Position numbers and translations under genes: made by a program
Shown here: positions 7,865 through 22,814 of the stretch, in pieces
Numbering within the stretch: position 1 is the first letter of the stretch
How the letters are laid out: each line of letters opens with the position of its first letter
Source of the DNA: Candidatus Micrarchaeota archaeon CG08_land_8_20_14_0_20_59_11
Lineage (GTDB): Archaea; Micrarchaeota; Micrarchaeia; Norongarragalinales; Norongarragalinaceae
Length of the DNA stretch: 29,774 bases
Direction of reading: 5' to 3'
Assembly (NCBI GenBank): GCA_002763345.1
Contig: PEXZ01000012.1
Coordinates: 1 to 29,774, forward strand
The notes under the pieces: model-generated
Told to the model about the DNA's origin: nothing
The model's database searches: none
What the model saw: only the letters and a program-made list of their open reading frames with translations

Positions 7865-8473
7865 TCATTCCGACGCCATCTCGGCGCAGGTGAGCACCTT
7901 CGCAAGCACCGCGGGCGCCGTCAACTCGACGCCGCCGAGCGCAACCCGCGGCAGACCTTCCAGCGCCTTCGACTTGTCAAGGAACGCGCCGTGCGGGAAG
8001 CCGCCCAGAATGATGCCCGTGTCCGCCTTTTTCGCCAGCAACGTGACCAATGCCTTAAGTTTCGTTTTCTTCCCCGCGGCATCCATCACGATGAAGTCCG
8101 CCTTCAGCTCCGAAAGCAGTTGCTTCAGCGTTTTGCTTTCTATTTTCAGCAGGGTTTTCCCGTCCGTCTCTATCCTGCCCTTCCGCTCCAAGTCCTCCAT
8201 CAATCCCACGAAGCGCTTGTAGGAGCGAGGAACGCGCCATTCGCCGGAAATCGCAATCACGCGCTCGTCATAGGTGTGCATGAAGACGCGCAGTTCACCG
8301 CGCTTGTTCAGCTCGCTGTCCAGCGACATCTTCAGCAAATCGTGGGCGATGTCGGGACGCCCGCGCTTGTCCTTGTTCTCGTACCTCGAAAGAGCCTTCC
8401 AGTCGTCGTTGGCGTCAATTGCACGCCCCTTGAAGAACTCAAGCGAGGTTTCCGCAAACACGATTGTCAGCAT
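7865..8473 (-). CDS. nep1: 16S rRNA pseudouridine N1-methyltransferase Nep1/Emg1 (SPOUT)
   Basis: KRGRPDI.H..L...LDS.LN..G.L....HT...RVPRSY.RF.GLME.L, plus the SPOUT GGFPHG motif. Confidence 0.93.
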   Translation of the reverse strand: MLTIVFAETSLEFFKGRAIDANDDWKALSRYENKDKRGRPDIAHDLLKMSLDSELNKRGELRVFMHTYDERVIAISGEWRVPRSYKRFVGLMEDLERKGRIETDGKTLLKIESKTLKQLLSELKADFIVMDAAGKKTKLKALVTLLAKKADTGIILGGFPHGAFLDKSKALEGLPRVALGGVELTAPAVLAKVLTCAEMASE

Positions 8474-8582
8474 TTTTCATCACATCAGGGGGAAATCTGG
8501 AGAACCGTTGAACCCGCGAGGGAGGGAATCAGGAGAAACCCTGAACTGAAGGGAGGGTGAAACCCTCCCTGCGGGTTGGGAA

Positions 8583-8695
8583 TGGGCCCGCGGGGATTTG
8601 GACCCCGGACGTCCAGTTGTCTCAGCCGACGCAGGGGCACACGCCCCTGCGCGTCGTATAAGACTGGCGCTCTGACCAGGCTGAGCTACGAGCCC
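8583..8695 (-). tRNA. tRNA-Ile (anticodon UAU) with 38-nt intron at 37/38 (intron 8619-8656)
   Basis: Folded by hand: acceptor GGGCTCG/CGGGCCC, discriminator A, D stem GCTC/GAGC, anticodon stem CCAGT/ACTGG, loop CT-TAT-A|A, T stem CGGGG/CCCCG. BHB motif: central helix CUUA/UGAG with 3-nt bulges UA^C and AC^A. No encoded CCA. Confidence 0.93.
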
Positions 8696-8706
8696 TTCCT
8701 TTGCAC

Positions 8707-8741
8707 GCCGCGCCGTGATTCTAGCAGGCGCGGCATACAAG
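8707..8741 (+). repeat. Hairpin+ATAC element, copy 1
   Basis: GCCGCGCC-(12 nt)-GGCGCGGC-ATACAAG. Confidence 0.6.
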
Positions 8742-8811
8742 CGTATGCATGGTGCGTGCCAAGCACGCATCAAACAAGGATTTTTAACGGCGGATGCATT
8801 TAAGGATTTTC

Positions 8812-11425: not shown

Positions 11426-12877
11426 GTGGACGAAGACGTCGAAAAATTAAAGCGCATCCGAGCGGAGCTTCGGCGCACCGGGCGGGTCGAGAGCAACTCG
11501 GAACTGATGGACTCGCTCGGGATGCGCGGAAAAAAGCGCCGCGAACTGCGGGTTCGGCGCGTGAGGAGCGCGAGCGGGATATGCGTGGTGGCGGTAATGA
11601 CGCGGCCCTACGCGTGCCCGGGAAAGTGCATATACTGCCCCACGTCGGAAAACGCGCCCAAGAGCTACACGGGCGAAGAGCCGGCTGCGCTGCGCGCGAG
11701 GCAGAACGGGTTCGACGCCTACAGGCAGGTTCGCTCGCGCCTCGGGCAACTGGAGGCAATCGGGCACGAACCGAGCAAGTGCGAACTCATCGTGATGGGC
11801 GGCACCTTCAACGCCCAGCCGCGGCAGTACCAGAACGCCTTCATGAAAAAAGCATTCGAGGCGTTTAACAACAGGAAAGCCAAAACGCTCGCCGACGCGC
11901 AAAAACAAAACGAGTCCGCGAAATACCGCGTCATCGGCCTGACCTTTGAGACGCGACCCGACTGGTGCTCGGAAGGGCAGGTGCGCAAGTTCCTCGAATT
12001 CGGCGCGACCCGCATCGAGCTCGGCGTGCAGTCGCTGGACGAGGAGGTTTTGCGGCGCGTCAATCGGGGGCACGGCGTCGCCAAAGTCGCCGAGGCGACG
12101 AAAACCTGCAAGGACGCTTTTCTCAAGGTCGGCTATCATATGATGCCGGGGCTTTTCGCCGACAAAAAAAAGGACGCGGCGATGTTCCGCATCTTATTCG
12201 AAGACGGCCGGTTCAAGCCCGACATGCTCAAGATTTACCCCTGCCTCGTGCTCGGGGGGACGCCGCTCTACGAACTGTGGCGCGAAGGGAAATTCAAGCC
12301 GTACTCCGCGGAGGAGGCGGCTGCGGCAATAGCGGAATGCAAGCGCTTCGTGCCCGGGTACTGCCGAATCATGCGCATCGACAGGGACATCCCGACGAAG
12401 CTGATAGTCGACGGCGTGAAGAAGAGCAACCTGCGCGAGCTTGTGCGCGAAGAGATGGATGAGCGCGGGCTGGAATGCCGATGCATACGGTGCCGCGAAA
12501 TCGGATTGCGCGGAGGAAGAATGGGAAACCTTAAGCTCGAACGTATGGAATACGAAGCCAGCGGAGGGACGGAGTATTTCCTGTCTTTGGAAACGGGGGG
12601 ACTTCTTGCGGCTTACCTGCGGCTGCGGAAAAGGGCCGACGGCGCGTTCGGGGTGCGGGAGTTGCGCGTGCTGGGCGAACAGACGCCAGTTGGCGAGGGG
12701 ACGCGTATGGCGCAGCACCTCGGGCTGGGGGCGCGCCTGCTCGGCGAGGCGGAAAGGATTGCGGCAGACGGCGGCGCCCGCGAAATGCTCGTGCTGAGCG
12801 GAATCGGCGCGCGGCCGTATTACCGAAAACGTGGTTATAAACTTCTTGACGGTTATATGGTGAAGGGATTGCGTTGA
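11426..12877 (+). CDS. elp3: tRNA uridine(34) acetyltransferase Elp3 (radical SAM + GNAT)
   Basis: AVMTRPYACPGKCIYCP (CxxxCxxC), PKSYTG.EPA, ETRPD, ELGVQS, LKIYP.LV, CRCIRCREIG, VREL.V.G, QHLGLG.RLL..AE. Confidence 0.97.
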   Translation: MDEDVEKLKRIRAELRRTGRVESNSELMDSLGMRGKKRRELRVRRVRSASGICVVAVMTRPYACPGKCIYCPTSENAPKSYTGEEPAALRARQNGFDAYRQVRSRLGQLEAIGHEPSKCELIVMGGTFNAQPRQYQNAFMKKAFEAFNNRKAKTLADAQKQNESAKYRVIGLTFETRPDWCSEGQVRKFLEFGATRIELGVQSLDEEVLRRVNRGHGVAKVAEATKTCKDAFLKVGYHMMPGLFADKKKDAAMFRILFEDGRFKPDMLKIYPCLVLGGTPLYELWREGKFKPYSAEEAAAAIAECKRFVPGYCRIMRIDRDIPTKLIVDGVKKSNLRELVREEMDERGLECRCIRCREIGLRGGRMGNLKLERMEYEASGGTEYFLSLETGGLLAAYLRLRKRADGAFGVRELRVLGEQTPVGEGTRMAQHLGLGARLLGEAERIAADGGAREMLVLSGIGARPYYRKRGYKLLDGYMVKGLR

Positions 12878-16966: not shown

Positions 16967-17040
16967 GGGCCAGTGGTATAACCTGGATAGCATGCGAGCT
17001 TGCGGAGCTTGAGATCAGGGTCCAAATCCCTGCTGGCCCG
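16967..17040 (+). tRNA. tRNA-Arg (anticodon GCG)
   Basis: Acceptor GGGCCAG/CTGGCCC, discriminator G, anticodon stem CGAGC/GCTTG, loop TT-GCG-GA, T stem CAGGG/CCCTG, A20 arginine identity element. Weak D stem; no encoded CCA. Confidence 0.88.
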
Positions 17041-20553: not shown

Positions 20554-21912
20554 CTACCACCACGATTCGCGCCTGAACAGGTACGCGGCTAACCCCTGCA
20601 TCGCCTCCGCCTTCAGCGATAGCGGCGGCGCAAACTTCGCCTTTTTCAGCGGCTTCACGAAATGCGACGCGGCTCCCCAGGATTCGGGGCTGCGGAGAAG
20701 CGCCCCGATTTCGGTTTCGAGGAAGGTTACCGCCCTCAGCCTTTCCGCGAACACGCGCCCTCCCTCGATGTAAGGTCCGCGGTGCGCGGCCTTGTGCGCG
20801 CGCACGAAATCCGCAACTGCCTTCGCTGCCGACACTGGCGGTCCCTGCACGCGCTTCAGGCGCGGGCGTTCCGCCGACTCGCACTCGACGACAAAGAAAG
20901 CGCCATCCTCCGCCATGAAGGAGGCGGTTCCCAGCATCCTGAAATCCTGAAGCGCGAGATGGCGGCTGAGCGCGCGCTCGGTTTTGTGCAACTGCGGGTA
21001 AAGGATGTCCTCGACGAGCTTTGGAGCGGCAATCTTCAGAATGACGATTGCCGTACCCCTGCTCCGCAGGGCGCGCGAAATTTCCGAGGCGGAATGCTTC
21101 CTGCGTTTTCCGAAGAAGAACGACACCGACGGCTTTGAACGGAACGCGCGGCAGAGCGCAATGAATTTGCAGAGGTTGGTTTCGGATACGACTGCCGCCG
21201 CGTTCCTGTTCTTGTCTATTGCGTCTATCACGACGAGCGGTTCGGCGAAGGGATGCCTGCGTTCCGCGTAGTACCCCTCCATGTCCACGACAACCGGCGG
21301 AATCCACTGCGCGGCTGCCTCGACCAGGTTCCTGAAGGAGCGGTAATTCAGGACGAGGTATTCGCACACCAATCCCGAGAAACCCTGCACGCGGAGTTCG
21401 GCGCCGTAGAGTCCCGCATTCTTCAGGAACTGCTTCAGCACGCGCACGTCGCGGCGCTGCGTTTCCGTGAGGCGCTTCTGCAGATAGTCCATGTGCAACG
21501 GCGAACGGTCTACCGCGCTCTTGAGTTCCTCGTGCGGCGACGTTTCGAAGCACGGGATTACCTCCACTCTGAACGCGCCGTGCTGCGCCTGCAGGTACGG
21601 GTGCTCCGCGTAGTGCTTCTCCCACTTCGCCTTCAGCGCCCTGCGCGTCGCCTTGAAGGTTTTCGCGACTATCTCTTCCTTCGAGAAGGAGCGCGGGAAC
21701 GAAACGAACAAATCGATGTCATTGCCGCCGCGCAAACCCGTGTCCCGCGCTGCCGAGCCGACGAAGCACATGCGGCACTGCTTCGGAAGGTTTTTCGAAA
21801 GCGCCGCGGAAACCCCCGCCGCGAACGCCTTCTCGGAATCCGCCTCGGACTTCGTCGGCGTTATTTTTTTGGAAACCTTCTCGGCGACGGCGTCTATTGC
21901 GTGCGACGGCAT
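20554..21912 (-). CDS. cca: CCA-adding enzyme (archaeal class I)
   Basis: VGS.ARDT.L.G.NDIDLFV, YAEHPY, V..PC...SAVDRSP.H, DVR.LK.FLK..G.YGAE....GFSG..CE.L. The ATG at 21912 lies about 23 nt after a TTTTAAA box. Confidence 0.95.
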   Translation of the reverse strand: MPSHAIDAVAEKVSKKITPTKSEADSEKAFAAGVSAALSKNLPKQCRMCFVGSAARDTGLRGGNDIDLFVSFPRSFSKEEIVAKTFKATRRALKAKWEKHYAEHPYLQAQHGAFRVEVIPCFETSPHEELKSAVDRSPLHMDYLQKRLTETQRRDVRVLKQFLKNAGLYGAELRVQGFSGLVCEYLVLNYRSFRNLVEAAAQWIPPVVVDMEGYYAERRHPFAEPLVVIDAIDKNRNAAAVVSETNLCKFIALCRAFRSKPSVSFFFGKRRKHSASEISRALRSRGTAIVILKIAAPKLVEDILYPQLHKTERALSRHLALQDFRMLGTASFMAEDGAFFVVECESAERPRLKRVQGPPVSAAKAVADFVRAHKAAHRGPYIEGGRVFAERLRAVTFLETEIGALLRSPESWGAASHFVKPLKKAKFAPPLSLKAEAMQGLAAYLFRRESWW

Positions 21913-21948
21913 GTAGAAAGCAATCGGCGCGCTCTTTAAAACATCTCG

Positions 21949-21974
21949 GTATGACGCATGCCGCCGCATGCGTC
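21949..21974 (-). repeat. Hairpin+ATAC element, copy 4
   Basis: Minus strand GACGCATGC-GGCG-GCATGCGTC-ATAC, a perfect 9-bp stem starting 3 nt after the peptidase stop. Confidence 0.6.
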
Positions 21975-21977
21975 CAG

Positions 21978-22814
21978 TCAATGAAACACCAAAAAGAGCA
22001 GCATGTCGCCTACGAGCAGGCACGTCACGAGCGCGACGAGGACGAACGGCCCGAAGCGCGGCAGGTGCCCGTAGACGAAGACATGCGTCGCGCCCGCCTT
22101 GCGCAGCTTCGCGAGCACCTCTTTCGTCGCGAGCTTGCCGAAATGCAGCTTCTTCGGCATGCGCTCGAGCGCGAGGACGTCTTCGTCCTCAACCGCGCGC
22201 AACGGGACGCGCCTGATGAGCAGTTCGTCGGATATCTGCTGCTTGAAAAGCAGGAGGAAGAACGCGCAGAATCCGAACGTGAGAAGCGCCAGCGTCTGCA
22301 GCAAGCCGAGCCCGAAAGCGATTATTCCCGCTGCGAACAACGCGCACGCCGCGGCCATCGCGTAAAGCCGCCATGAACGGAGGGACGGGCTTTTGCGTCT
22401 GACGAGCATCGCCGCGTAATTGACTGCGGTGAAAAGCGTCGCGTAGAACGACGCCGCCACGAAAACGCTGAGTATGAAGGGAAGCACGAGCAGGTACGAC
22501 GGCGGCATGAGTTGCGGGAACAGCGTCGGGTTCATGGGAAGCAGCGCGGCGATTCCGAAGAACAGGAGGACGTCCCCTGAACCGAACTGCCCCGCCTTCC
22601 AGCACACGAGCCCGAAAAGCGCGATGACGCCGAGAAGAATCGCGGTTTGCGTTATGAAGGGGACGTCGAACGTGAGGATGTCGAGCAGGACGCCGACCGC
22701 AATCATGCCGTACAGTATCTTGTCGTCTATGAAACTGGTTTTCGCATCCTGCCAAGCGGCGACGCCGCAGCCGAGAACCGCGATGCACACGCGTACCGCC
22801 GCCAAACTAAGCAT
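21978..22814 (-). CDS. Prepilin/class III signal peptidase (A24, PibD/FlaK-like)
   Basis: Multi-TM protein with the first Asp in QDAKT..IDD, the second in FGSGDV (GxGD), and a C-terminal PRFGPF..V.L motif. The ATG at 22814 avoids overlap with the upstream gene. Confidence 0.85.
   Translation of the reverse strand: MLSLAAVRVCIAVLGCGVAAWQDAKTSFIDDKILYGMIAVGVLLDILTFDVPFITQTAILLGVIALFGLVCWKAGQFGSGDVLLFFGIAALLPMNPTLFPQLMPPSYLLVLPFILSVFVAASFYATLFTAVNYAAMLVRRKSPSLRSWRLYAMAAACALFAAGIIAFGLGLLQTLALLTFGFCAFFLLLFKQQISDELLIRRVPLRAVEDEDVLALERMPKKLHFGKLATKEVLAKLRKAGATHVFVYGHLPRFGPFVLVALVTCLLVGDMLLFLVFH

What the first reader, a model, noticed from the sequence alone, without database searches (positions are those of the whole stretch)
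8583..8695. Rare tRNA-Ile with UAU anticodon carrying a BHB intron that sequesters U34
Seen: anticodon TAT and a 38-nt intron at 37/38 whose central helix pairs C32-U33-U34-A35 with intron UGAG, plus a GC-rich intron hairpin (GCAGGGGC/GCCCCTGC). ATA codons are used in the flanking genes. Established: most archaea decode AUA with agmatidine-modified tRNA-Ile(CAU) made by TiaS; UAU-type tRNA-Ile is confined to a few lineages, and eukaryotic tRNA-Ile(UAU) gets intron-dependent anticodon pseudouridines. Inference: this lineage may lack TiaS and need another way to avoid reading AUG. Elp3, a U34 modifier, is encoded 2.7 kb away.
Basis: partly seen in the sequence, partly recalled or inferred. Interest (0 to 1): 0.65.

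Follow-up and report, generated by a model that had tools for sequence, protein, structure and literature searches.

The report
Intron-bearing tRNA-Ile(UAU) of a Micrarchaeote
This is a real, spliceable isoleucine tRNA gene with a UAU anticodon that reads the common AUA codon in a tiny Micrarchaeota archaeon lacking the usual enzyme TiaS. The same arrangement was published for the related ARMAN-2 archaeon in 2011, so it is an ordinary trait of the lineage.

Summary
Window 8583-8695 (minus strand) is a tRNA gene (Rfam 51.7 bits) with anticodon UAU and a 38-nt intron at 37/38. The intron sits in a bulge-helix-bulge motif whose central helix pairs C32-A35 with intron UGAG.

The replacement idea is supported:
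- TiaS was not found in this 71.5%-complete MAG, in 40 relatives, or in 301 sampled Micrarchaeota genomes.
- The only CAU tRNAs found look like initiator and elongator Met.
- ATA makes up 29% of Ile codons.

Orthologous intron-bearing tRNA-Ile(UAU) genes occur in 27 of 30 relatives' loci examined. The genome also encodes an epsilon2-type splicing endonuclease (full-length match to the ARMAN-2 structure), RtcB and a CCA-adding enzyme.

None of this is new. Fujishima et al. 2011 (PMC3239211) reported tRNA-Ile(UAU), no tRNA-Ile(CAU) and no TiaS in ARMAN-2/-4/-5, and spliced the ARMAN-2 pre-tRNA-Ile(UAU) in vitro.

Two parts of the finding carry no special meaning:
- "Sequestering U34" is the generic geometry of any 37/38 archaeal intron. 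Intron-less orthologs exist in at least 44 Micrarchaeota genomes.
- Elp3's proximity is plain block synteny.

This scan has already noted tRNA-Ile(UAU) in about 300 other genomes. How AUG misreading is avoided remains unknown.

The parts
8583..8695 (-). pre-tRNA-Ile(UAU) gene, 113 nt; no encoded CCA; discriminator A73
   Evidence: RF00005 at 51.7 bits; ARAGORN -i calls tRNA-Ile(tat) with intron i(40,38); orthologs in 27 relatives
8657..8695 (-). 5' exon (39 nt): acceptor 5' strand GGGCUCG, D-arm, anticodon stem CCAGU, loop CUUAUA up to A37
   Evidence: Sequence read directly; Rfam alignment
8658..8660 (-). anticodon U34-A35-U36 (reads AUA)
   Evidence: CUUAUA is invariant in the 27 orthologs that the CTTATA-anchored parse recovered from 30 relatives' loci
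8619..8656 (-). 38-nt intron at the canonical 37/38 position, within an hBHBh' splice motif
   Evidence: Bulges are UA|C and AC|A; the central helix is CUUA/UGAG; the outer helix is G-C, A.G, C-G, G-C
8631..8650 (-). intron hairpin GCAGGGGC-GUGU-GCCCCUGC
   Evidence: MFE folds. A hairpin is kept in orthologs although the sequence varies
8621..8624 (-). intron UGAG that pairs with C32-U33-U34-A35 (central BHB helix)
   Evidence: 25 of 27 orthologs keep 4 of 4 pairs
8583..8618 (-). 3' exon (36 nt): A38, ACUGG, variable loop, T-arm CGGGG-UCCAAAU-CCCCG (C55 instead of U55), acceptor 3' strand, A73
8496..8582 (-). structured G/C-rich 3' trailer (AACCCGC-AGGGAGGG-UUUCA-CCCUCCCU-...-CCCUCCCUC-GCGGGUU), a member of a family found after about 10 tRNA genes of this genome; function unknown
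   Evidence: no Rfam match
20554..22023 (-). CCA-adding enzyme, needed because the gene encodes no CCA; context, not part of the gene
   Evidence: Pfam tRNA_NucTransf2, CAA_C and NTP_transf_2
11426..12877 (+). Elp3 (tRNA U34 radical-SAM/GNAT modifier); a neighbour by block synteny only
   Evidence: TIGR01211 at 594.6 bits; synteny map

Best explanation
The gene encodes the AUA-decoding isoleucine tRNA of a Micrarchaeota archaeon (same genus as 'Ca. Norongarragalina meridionalis' LFW-144_1). The phylum has no TiaS, so it cannot make an agmatidine tRNA-Ile2(CAU). AUA is instead read directly by a UAU anticodon, while tRNA-Ile(GAU) reads AUU and AUC.

Proposed maturation path (inferred by homology, not shown here):
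- The precursor carries a 38-nt intron at 37/38 in a bulge-helix-bulge motif.
- The genome's single-chain three-unit epsilon2 EndA cuts in the two 3-nt bulges (UA|C and AC|A).
- RtcB joins the exons and the CCA-adding enzyme completes the 3' end.

What is shown: the gene, its anticodon, the splice motif and its conservation, the absence of detectable TiaS, heavy ATA usage, and the presence of the processing enzymes. What is inferred: expression, splicing, charging by IleRS and AUA reading.

Unknown: the chemical state of U34, and how AUG misreading is avoided. Candidates are unmodified U34 with ribosome or IleRS adaptation as in Mycoplasma mobile, pseudouridine as in eukaryotes, or an Elp3-type xm5U.
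For: The gene is a tRNA with a UAU anticodon and a 38-nt intron at 37/38.

Its acceptor stem GGGCUCG differs at one pair from that of tRNA-Ile(GAU), GGACUCG, in the same genome. The one non-initiator CAU tRNA has a different stem, GCCGGUG.

Intron-bearing orthologs were found in 27 of 30 relatives' loci. Their BHB central helix is kept and their anticodon stems show compensatory changes.

TiaS:
- TiaS_FLD gave 0 of 41 and 0 of 301 genomes (176 of them at least 90% complete), and rang in 4 archaeal controls and 2 MAG controls.
- A full-length TiaS query found nothing.

ATA is 12.3 per 1000 codons, 29% of Ile codons, and occurs in 492 of 560 long ORFs.

Processing enzymes: the EndA is a 385-aa ORF matching PDB 4FZ2 end to end at E 8e-128, and 4FZ2 is ARMAN-2 epsilon2 EndA (PMC3488258). 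RtcB is present and so is the CCA-adding enzyme.

Published precedent: ARMAN-2/-4/-5 have tRNA-Ile(UAU) and lack tRNA-Ile(CAU) and TiaS. The ARMAN-2 pre-tRNA-Ile(UAU), with its 37/38 intron in a strict hBHBh' motif, is cleaved by the epsilon2 EndA in vitro (PMC3239211).
Against: The MAG is only 71.5% complete and only 25 tRNAs were found, so absence of a tRNA-Ile(CAU) in this genome alone is weak. Multi-intron tRNAs escape the covariance model: only 21 and 30 tRNAs were detected in two near-complete relatives, so a full anticodon census was not possible.

There are no expression or modification data. The upstream region lacks the clear TTTAAA/TATAAA-type box seen before most other tRNA genes of this genome. 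The T-loop has C55 instead of U55, which is unusual, although three other tRNAs of the genome share it.
Confidence: 0.9

Rival explanations
1. The 37/38 intron has a dedicated role in preparing the anticodon before splicing, for example by directing pseudouridylation of U34/U36 as the intron does for eukaryotic tRNA-Ile(UAU), or by shielding U34 from Elp3. That role would be why it is retained.
For: All 27 orthologs recovered in the order keep an intron at exactly 37/38, while extra introns in the D-arm and T-loop come and go. The tRNA-Ile(UAU) genes of ARMAN-2 and Korarchaeum also have an intron. Eukaryotic psi34/psi36 formation is intron-dependent (established knowledge; psi34 is cited in PMC3895270).
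Against: Intron-less tRNA-Ile(UAU) genes exist in the same phylum. G042 and G043 were read in full. The intron-less arm GCGGUCUUAUAAGCCGU occurs in 44 of 301 genomes, and TiaS was not found in any of the 301 genomes sampled at the same settings. The 32-35/intron pairing is what any canonical BHB requires. Intron sequence outside the BHB constraints is not conserved. An ACA at the 3' junction is present in only 9 of 27 orthologs. Canonical 37/38 introns are generally stable in archaea.
Confidence: 0.07
2. The intron-bearing CAU tRNA on contig C14 (6061-6172) is a tRNA-Ile2 modified at C34 by an unknown, non-TiaS enzyme. AUA would then be read by two tRNAs and the UAU gene would be redundant.
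For: Its spliced sequence is 60/75 identical to tRNA-Ile(UAU), about the same as tRNA-Ile(GAU) at 59/75. It shares the D-arm and most of the anticodon stem.
Against: Its acceptor stem GCCGGUG differs from both Ile tRNAs. The only other CAU tRNA found has initiator marks (A1:U72, and GGG/CCC in the anticodon stem), so C14 is needed as the elongator Met tRNA. No TiaS was found by two methods. The ARMAN work reached the same reading.
Confidence: 0.03
3. The gene is a decaying or unexpressed copy, suggested by C55 in the T-loop and the lack of an obvious TATA box.
For: U54-C55-C56 in the T-loop. The upstream 60 nt lack the A/T box seen before most tRNA genes here.
Against: It is the single copy and the only AUA reader found, in a genome where 88% of long ORFs use ATA. 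All stems are perfect. It is conserved with compensatory changes across the order. C55 also occurs in three other otherwise normal tRNAs of this genome.
Confidence: 0.02

Closest known systems
pre-tRNA-Ile(UAU) of 'Ca. Micrarchaeum acidiphilum' ARMAN-2 (Fujishima et al. 2011, NAR 39:9695, PMC3239211)
   Same: Same phylum and same UAU anticodon. The intron is at the canonical 37/38 position in an hBHBh' motif. No TiaS and no tRNA-Ile(CAU). Same epsilon2 three-unit EndA (full-length match to 4FZ2).
   Different: A different order (Norongarragalinales versus Micrarchaeales). The intron is 38 nt rather than 25 nt. The outer helix carries an A.G mismatch at its second pair. Nothing has been tested at the bench here.
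tRNA-Ile(UAU) of Nanoarchaeum equitans and 'Ca. Korarchaeum cryptofilum' (PMC6000648; PMC3895270)
   Same: Archaeal UAU-type AUA decoders. The Korarchaeum gene also has an intron and resembles its own tRNA-Ile(GAU).
   Different: Other phyla, possibly independent origins. Only two such genomes were known in that 167-genome survey.
Eukaryotic cytoplasmic tRNA-Ile(UAU)
   Same: UAU anticodon with an intron next to the anticodon; AUA is read without a modified C.
   Different: In eukaryotes U34 and U36 become pseudouridine in an intron-dependent step (established knowledge). Nothing comparable is shown here, and intron-less orthologs exist in the phylum.
Mycoplasma mobile tRNA-Ile2(UAU) (Taniguchi et al. 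2013, PMC3575796)
   Same: A reduced genome that lost the C34-modifying enzyme and reads AUA with UAU.
   Different: It is bacterial and has no intron. U34 is shown to be unmodified, and AUG discrimination depends on the organism's own ribosome and an IleRS Arg residue. This was not examined here.
Canonical archaeal tRNA-Ile2(CAU) with agmatidine made by TiaS
   Same: The same job: reading AUA but not AUG.
   Different: A different anticodon and a different enzyme requirement. TiaS was not found in any of the 301 Micrarchaeota genomes sampled.

Membership tests
tRNA (Rfam RF00005) | Cloverleaf covariance-model score above the gathering threshold | tested here: met
   51.7 bits against a gathering score of 29, model positions 1-71
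tRNA-Ile(UAU), UAU-type AUA decoder | Anticodon U34-A35-U36 after intron removal | tested here: met
   CUUAUA|intron|A loop. The splice sites are fixed by the two 3-nt bulges. The same loop is present in all 27 orthologs recovered with the CTTATA anchor
tRNA-Ile(UAU), UAU-type AUA decoder | Isoleucine identity (charged by IleRS) | not testable with these tools
   Indirect only: the acceptor stem differs at one pair from tRNA-Ile(GAU) of the same genome, and the discriminator is A73
tRNA-Ile(UAU), UAU-type AUA decoder | The organism lacks TiaS and tRNA-Ile(CAU) | tested here: met
   PF08489 gave 0 of 301 genomes with positive controls. A full-length TiaS query found nothing. Only two CAU tRNAs were found, initiator-like and elongator. 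Caveat: the MAG is 71.5% complete and the tRNA census is incomplete
Archaeal BHB (hBHBh') intron at the canonical position | Two 3-nt bulges separated by a 4-bp helix, flanked by helices, with cleavage giving a 37/38 junction | tested here: met
   UA|C and AC|A bulges and a CUUA/UGAG helix. The anticodon stem lies on one side; the outer helix G-C, A.G, C-G, G-C lies on the other. The one mismatch in h' recurs in most orthologs
Archaeal BHB (hBHBh') intron at the canonical position | Cleaved by the cognate EndA | not testable with these tools
   A cognate epsilon2-type EndA is encoded. Cleavage has been shown only for the ARMAN-2 ortholog
Intron-guided anticodon modification (eukaryotic psi34/psi36 type, or in-cis H/ACA-like) | Intron required in all lineages that use the tRNA; conserved guide elements such as an ACA box | tested here: not met
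   Intron-less orthologs occur in at least 44 of 301 genomes. An ACA at the junction is present in only 9 of 27 orthologs, and there is no other conserved intron motif beyond the BHB constraints

The most novel reading that the evidence does not exclude
Within the order Norongarragalinales the 37/38 intron of tRNA-Ile(UAU) is kept in every ortholog because the unspliced precursor is the substrate for an anticodon modification, for example psi34/psi36 as in eukaryotes. That modification would stop the UAU anticodon from misreading AUG. The intron-less families would have evolved a different solution.
Probability: 0.06. Interest if true: 0.55.

Novelty: already known. Interest (0 to 1): 0.15.

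Why it matters
It matters little beyond correct annotation. Standard tRNA finders without intron models miss this gene, which could make the MAG look as if it cannot read a codon that makes up 29% of its isoleucine codons.

The survey adds modest context to the 2011 ARMAN report. TiaS was not found in any of 301 sampled Micrarchaeota genomes, and tRNA-Ile(UAU) is present in several families, both with and without the intron.

The open question stays open: how a UAU anticodon avoids reading AUG in archaea, when engineered UAU tRNAs in Haloferax misread AUG (PMC3895270). This sequence does not make that question more testable than ARMAN-2 or cultured Micrarchaeota co-cultures already do.

Tried and rejected
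- ARAGORN in default mode misses the gene. Its intron calls on the relatives' loci were mostly wrong, so I parsed the anticodon arms directly.
- A substitution-only fuzzy match failed on most loci because of D-loop indels and extra introns.
- A full anticodon census of near-complete relatives was abandoned. RF00005 finds only 21 tRNAs in G008 and 30 in G030, and misses G008's own two-intron tRNA-Ile(UAU).
- Overall sequence identity cannot separate the C14 CAU tRNA from the Ile tRNAs. Only the acceptor stem and the lack of TiaS do.
- The Elp3 linkage looked striking at first: same contig, 1.4-3.7 kb, in 14 family genomes (9.3 kb in a 15th). It proved to be conservation of a whole block.
- A kink-turn reading of the conserved purine-purine mismatch next to the 5' bulge was considered. 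I rejected it because the first pair after the bulge is G-C, not a sheared G.A.
- A box C/D reading of GUGAUGA...CUGA at 8470-8490 was rejected because it is the start of the Nep1 ORF.
- A relaxed Rfam scan of 8380-8800 gave nothing credible for the 3' trailer.
- The exact pattern CCAGTCTTATA...ARCTGG finds orthologs only in the own order, because anticodon stems differ elsewhere. It is therefore a lower bound, not a distribution.

Full report
**What is there.** Rfam's tRNA model matches the minus strand of 8583-8695 at 51.7 bits (gathering score 29), with one 39-nt insertion after position 37. ARAGORN misses the gene in default mode. With introns allowed it calls tRNA-Ile, anticodon tat, with a 38-nt intron.

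Read directly, the gene is laid out as follows:
- acceptor GGGCUCG
- D-arm GCUC-AGCCUGGUCA-GAGC
- anticodon stem CCAGU
- loop C32-U33-U34-A35-U36-A37
- intron of 38 nt
- A38 and ACUGG
- variable loop ACGUC
- T-arm CGGGG-UCCAAAU-CCCCG
- acceptor CGGGCCC
- discriminator A73, with no encoded CCA

In window coordinates the 5' exon is 8657-8695, the anticodon 8658-8660, the intron 8619-8656 and the 3' exon 8583-8618.

**The splice motif.** The precursor fits the archaeal bulge-helix-bulge motif:
- The anticodon stem is followed by the 4-bp helix C32-U33-U34-A35 / U-G-A-G.
- That helix is flanked by the bulges U36-A37|C and A-C|A38.
- An outer helix follows (G-C, A.G, C-G, G-C).
- The outer helix leads into the hairpin GCAGGGGC-GUGU-GCCCCUGC.

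The only detail it missed is the mismatch at the second pair of the outer helix. The whole precursor folds well below shuffled controls (z = -4.5), although the unconstrained MFE structure is not the cloverleaf.

**Which organism.** The window is contig C59 of a 789-kb, 84-contig MAG that is 71.5% complete with 58.7% GC. Its GatE is 79% identical to that of 'uncultured archaeon LFW-144_1', and the next-best hits are all Candidatus Micrarchaeota MAGs. It is 'Ca. Norongarragalina meridionalis', order Norongarragalinales, class Micrarchaeia (PMC8561730).

**Is it conserved?**
- BLAST of the 113-nt gene against 40 relatives in the same family and order gives full-length or near full-length matches in many of them.
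- Parsing the 30 loci shows an anticodon arm of the form NNNNN-CUUAUA followed by an intron at 37/38 in 27 of them.
- Introns are 34-53 nt long.
- The four central-helix pairs are all present in 25 of 27 orthologs, using UGAG, UGGG, UAGG or UAAG. Chance expectation is about 1/64.
- The 3' bulge is always NN|A.
- The purine-purine mismatch in the outer helix recurs.
- One ortholog has a doubly compensated anticodon stem (CUGGU/ACCAG).
- Several orthologs carry further introns in the D-arm or T-loop, so intron number varies while the 37/38 intron stays.

**Does the lineage lack the TiaS route?**
- Pfam TiaS_FLD (PF08489) finds nothing in the MAG, nothing in 40 relatives of which 14 are at least 90% complete, and nothing in 301 sampled Micrarchaeota genomes of which 176 are at least 90% complete.
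- The same search rings in all four archaeal control genomes and in Nitrososphaeria and Methanoplasma MAGs.
- A full-length TiaS carrying all four TiaS Pfam domains finds no relative in the MAG or in 40 relatives.
- Of the 25 tRNA genes detected in the MAG, two have CAU. C80:20-94 has initiator hallmarks (A1:U72, and GGG/CCC in the anticodon stem). C14:6061-6172 is an elongator with a 37-nt intron at 37/38.
- The C14 acceptor stem, GCCGGUG, differs from the stems of tRNA-Ile(UAU) (GGGCUCG) and tRNA-Ile(GAU) (GGACUCG), which differ from each other at one pair. C14 is therefore best read as elongator tRNA-Met.

**Is the codon used?** ATA accounts for 12.3 per 1000 codons and 29% of Ile codons. 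It occurs in 492 of 560 long ORFs, including Elp3, GatE, FtsY, Nep1 and the CCA-adding enzyme of this window. An AUA reader is therefore indispensable.

**Processing enzymes.**
- A 385-aa ORF on C3 has an EndA N-terminal domain and two catalytic-type domains.
- It matches PDB 4FZ2 from end to end at E 8e-128. 4FZ2 is the three-unit epsilon2 endonuclease of ARMAN-2 (PMC3488258).
- RtcB is on C8.
- The CCA-adding enzyme is in the window at 20554-22023.

**What is already published.** Fujishima et al. 2011 (PMC3239211) report that ARMAN-2, -4 and -5 possess tRNA-Ile(UAU) and lack both tRNA-Ile(CAU) and TiaS. They also show that the ARMAN-2 pre-tRNA-Ile(UAU), with a 25-nt intron at 37/38 in a strict hBHBh' motif, is cleaved in vitro by the epsilon2 endonuclease. 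Korarchaeum and Nanoarchaeum are the other published archaeal cases, and the Korarchaeum gene also has an intron (PMC6000648; PMC3895270). The present gene is the ortholog of the ARMAN-2 gene in a sister order. This scan has also logged the same kind of finding in about 300 other genomes, mostly Asgard.

**The two inferences that do not hold up.**

*"Sequestering U34."* Pairing of 32-35 with the intron is what the BHB motif of any canonical 37/38 intron consists of. The elongator tRNA-Met of this genome is built the same way. Other Micrarchaeota families carry tRNA-Ile(UAU) genes with no intron at all. G042 and G043 were read in full, and the intron-less arm GCGGUCUUAUAAGCCGU occurs in 44 of 301 genomes, all in two families. 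TiaS was not found in any of the 301 genomes sampled at the same settings. Prompted by earlier notes of this scan on Asgard genes, I looked for a conserved ACA box. An ACA spans the 3' junction here, but only in 9 of 27 orthologs. An intron-dependent anticodon modification is therefore not excluded for this order, but it has no positive support.

*Elp3.* The ORF at 11426-12877 is a bona fide Elp3 (TIGR01211, 594.6 bits). It lies on the same contig as the tRNA in 15 family genomes: within 1.4-3.7 kb in 14 of them and 9.3 kb away in G003. The map shows that the whole block is conserved: three small ORFs, Nep1, tRNA-Ile(UAU), a CDP-alcohol phosphatidyltransferase, a 357-aa ORF, Elp3 and GatE. In G030, from another family, the tRNA keeps its Nep1 and PssA-like neighbours while Elp3 lies about 950 kb away. 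The proximity is inherited gene order, not evidence of coupling. Elp3 itself is common in these genomes (38 of 41). In Haloferax an engineered tRNA-Ile(UAU) acquires cnm5U34 and then binds AUA > AUG > AUU (PMC3895270), so an Elp3-type modification would not obviously solve the AUG problem.

**What remains unknown.** The state of U34 and the basis of AUG discrimination are not known. In Mycoplasma mobile, U34 is unmodified and discrimination depends on the organism's own ribosome and an IleRS arginine (PMC3575796). Eukaryotes use pseudouridine. No tool here can decide between these.

**Verdict.** The main interpretation (a TiaS-less lineage using a UAU tRNA) is supported, but it was already published for the phylum. 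The U34-sequestration and Elp3 hints are not supported. Interest is low.

Noticed in passing
window 8496-8582 (-); also G000 C37:1918-2017, C49:13013-13080, C47, C26:10745-10814, C80:1591-1660, C52:2407-2476, C45:1580-1634, C10, C24:74-172, C36:3792-3980: About 10 of the 25 tRNA genes are followed, before the oligo-T stretch, by related 60-100-nt G5/C5-rich structured trailers. One type reads [stem]-GGGGGAAACC-loop-GGUUUCCCCC-[stem]-ACCCCCUUCC. The other reads AACCCGC-AGGGAGGG-UUUCA-CCCUCCCU-...-CCCUCCCUC-GCGGGUU. The same-genus ortholog keeps the structure with compensatory changes. Some copies are inverted or not next to a detected tRNA. There is no Rfam match and the function is unknown.
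   Followed up: partly
window 8596-8602 (-) and 17021-17027 (+); G000 C80:1517-1590, C14:6599-6671: Four of the 25 tRNAs of this MAG (Ile-UAU, Arg-GCG, Lys-CUU, Pro-CGG) have U54-C55-C56 in the T-loop instead of U54-U55-C56, inside perfect T-stems. The tRNA-Ile(UAU) orthologs whose T-loop could be read have the usual UUC.
   Followed up: partly
L087, L090, L098, L101, L105 (D-arm); L078, L080, L089, L091, L095, L099, L100 (T-loop); L140, L136: Orthologs of this tRNA in relatives carry one or two additional introns at non-canonical positions (D-arm or position 26 region, T-loop). These differ between genera, which shows rapid intron gain and loss around a stable 37/38 intron. Such genes escape RF00005.
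   Followed up: partly
window 8707-8741 (+); G000 C10 and C73 upstream of the tRNA-Ala genes; C37/C49 trailers; C41, C64, C52, C8: Palindromic GC-rich hairpins lie just upstream of tRNA genes in place of an obvious TATA box, and recur at many other sites. Examples are GCCGCGCC-N11-GGCGCGGC before this tRNA, and GACGCAUGC..GCAUGCGUC or GGACGCAUCCCGCGGGAUGCGUC elsewhere. This is a REP-like dispersed family.
   Followed up: no
L142 (G052), L144 (G043), L145 (G113): Elongator tRNA-Met(CAU) genes of other Micrarchaeota families carry long 37/38 introns with box C/D-like motifs (GUGAUGA ... CUGA). This resembles the known intron-encoded methylation guides of other archaea. The 37-nt intron of this MAG's tRNA-Met has none.
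   Followed up: no
G316, G317, G318 (Aenigmatarchaeota, Nanoarchaeia and Woesearchaeota MAGs reached through L044, L051, L043): TiaS_FLD was also not found in three other DPANN MAGs, while it was found in Nitrososphaeria and Methanoplasma MAGs. Loss of TiaS may be wider in DPANN. The completeness of these genomes is not known.
   Followed up: no
L139 (G054:C1:83445-83560): A tRNA with an Ile-like body (85% identical to the 5' exon) reads as tRNA-Lys(UUU) with a 16-nt intron at 37/38. No tRNA-Ile(UAU) was picked up in that genome (family f19) by BLAST.
   Followed up: no
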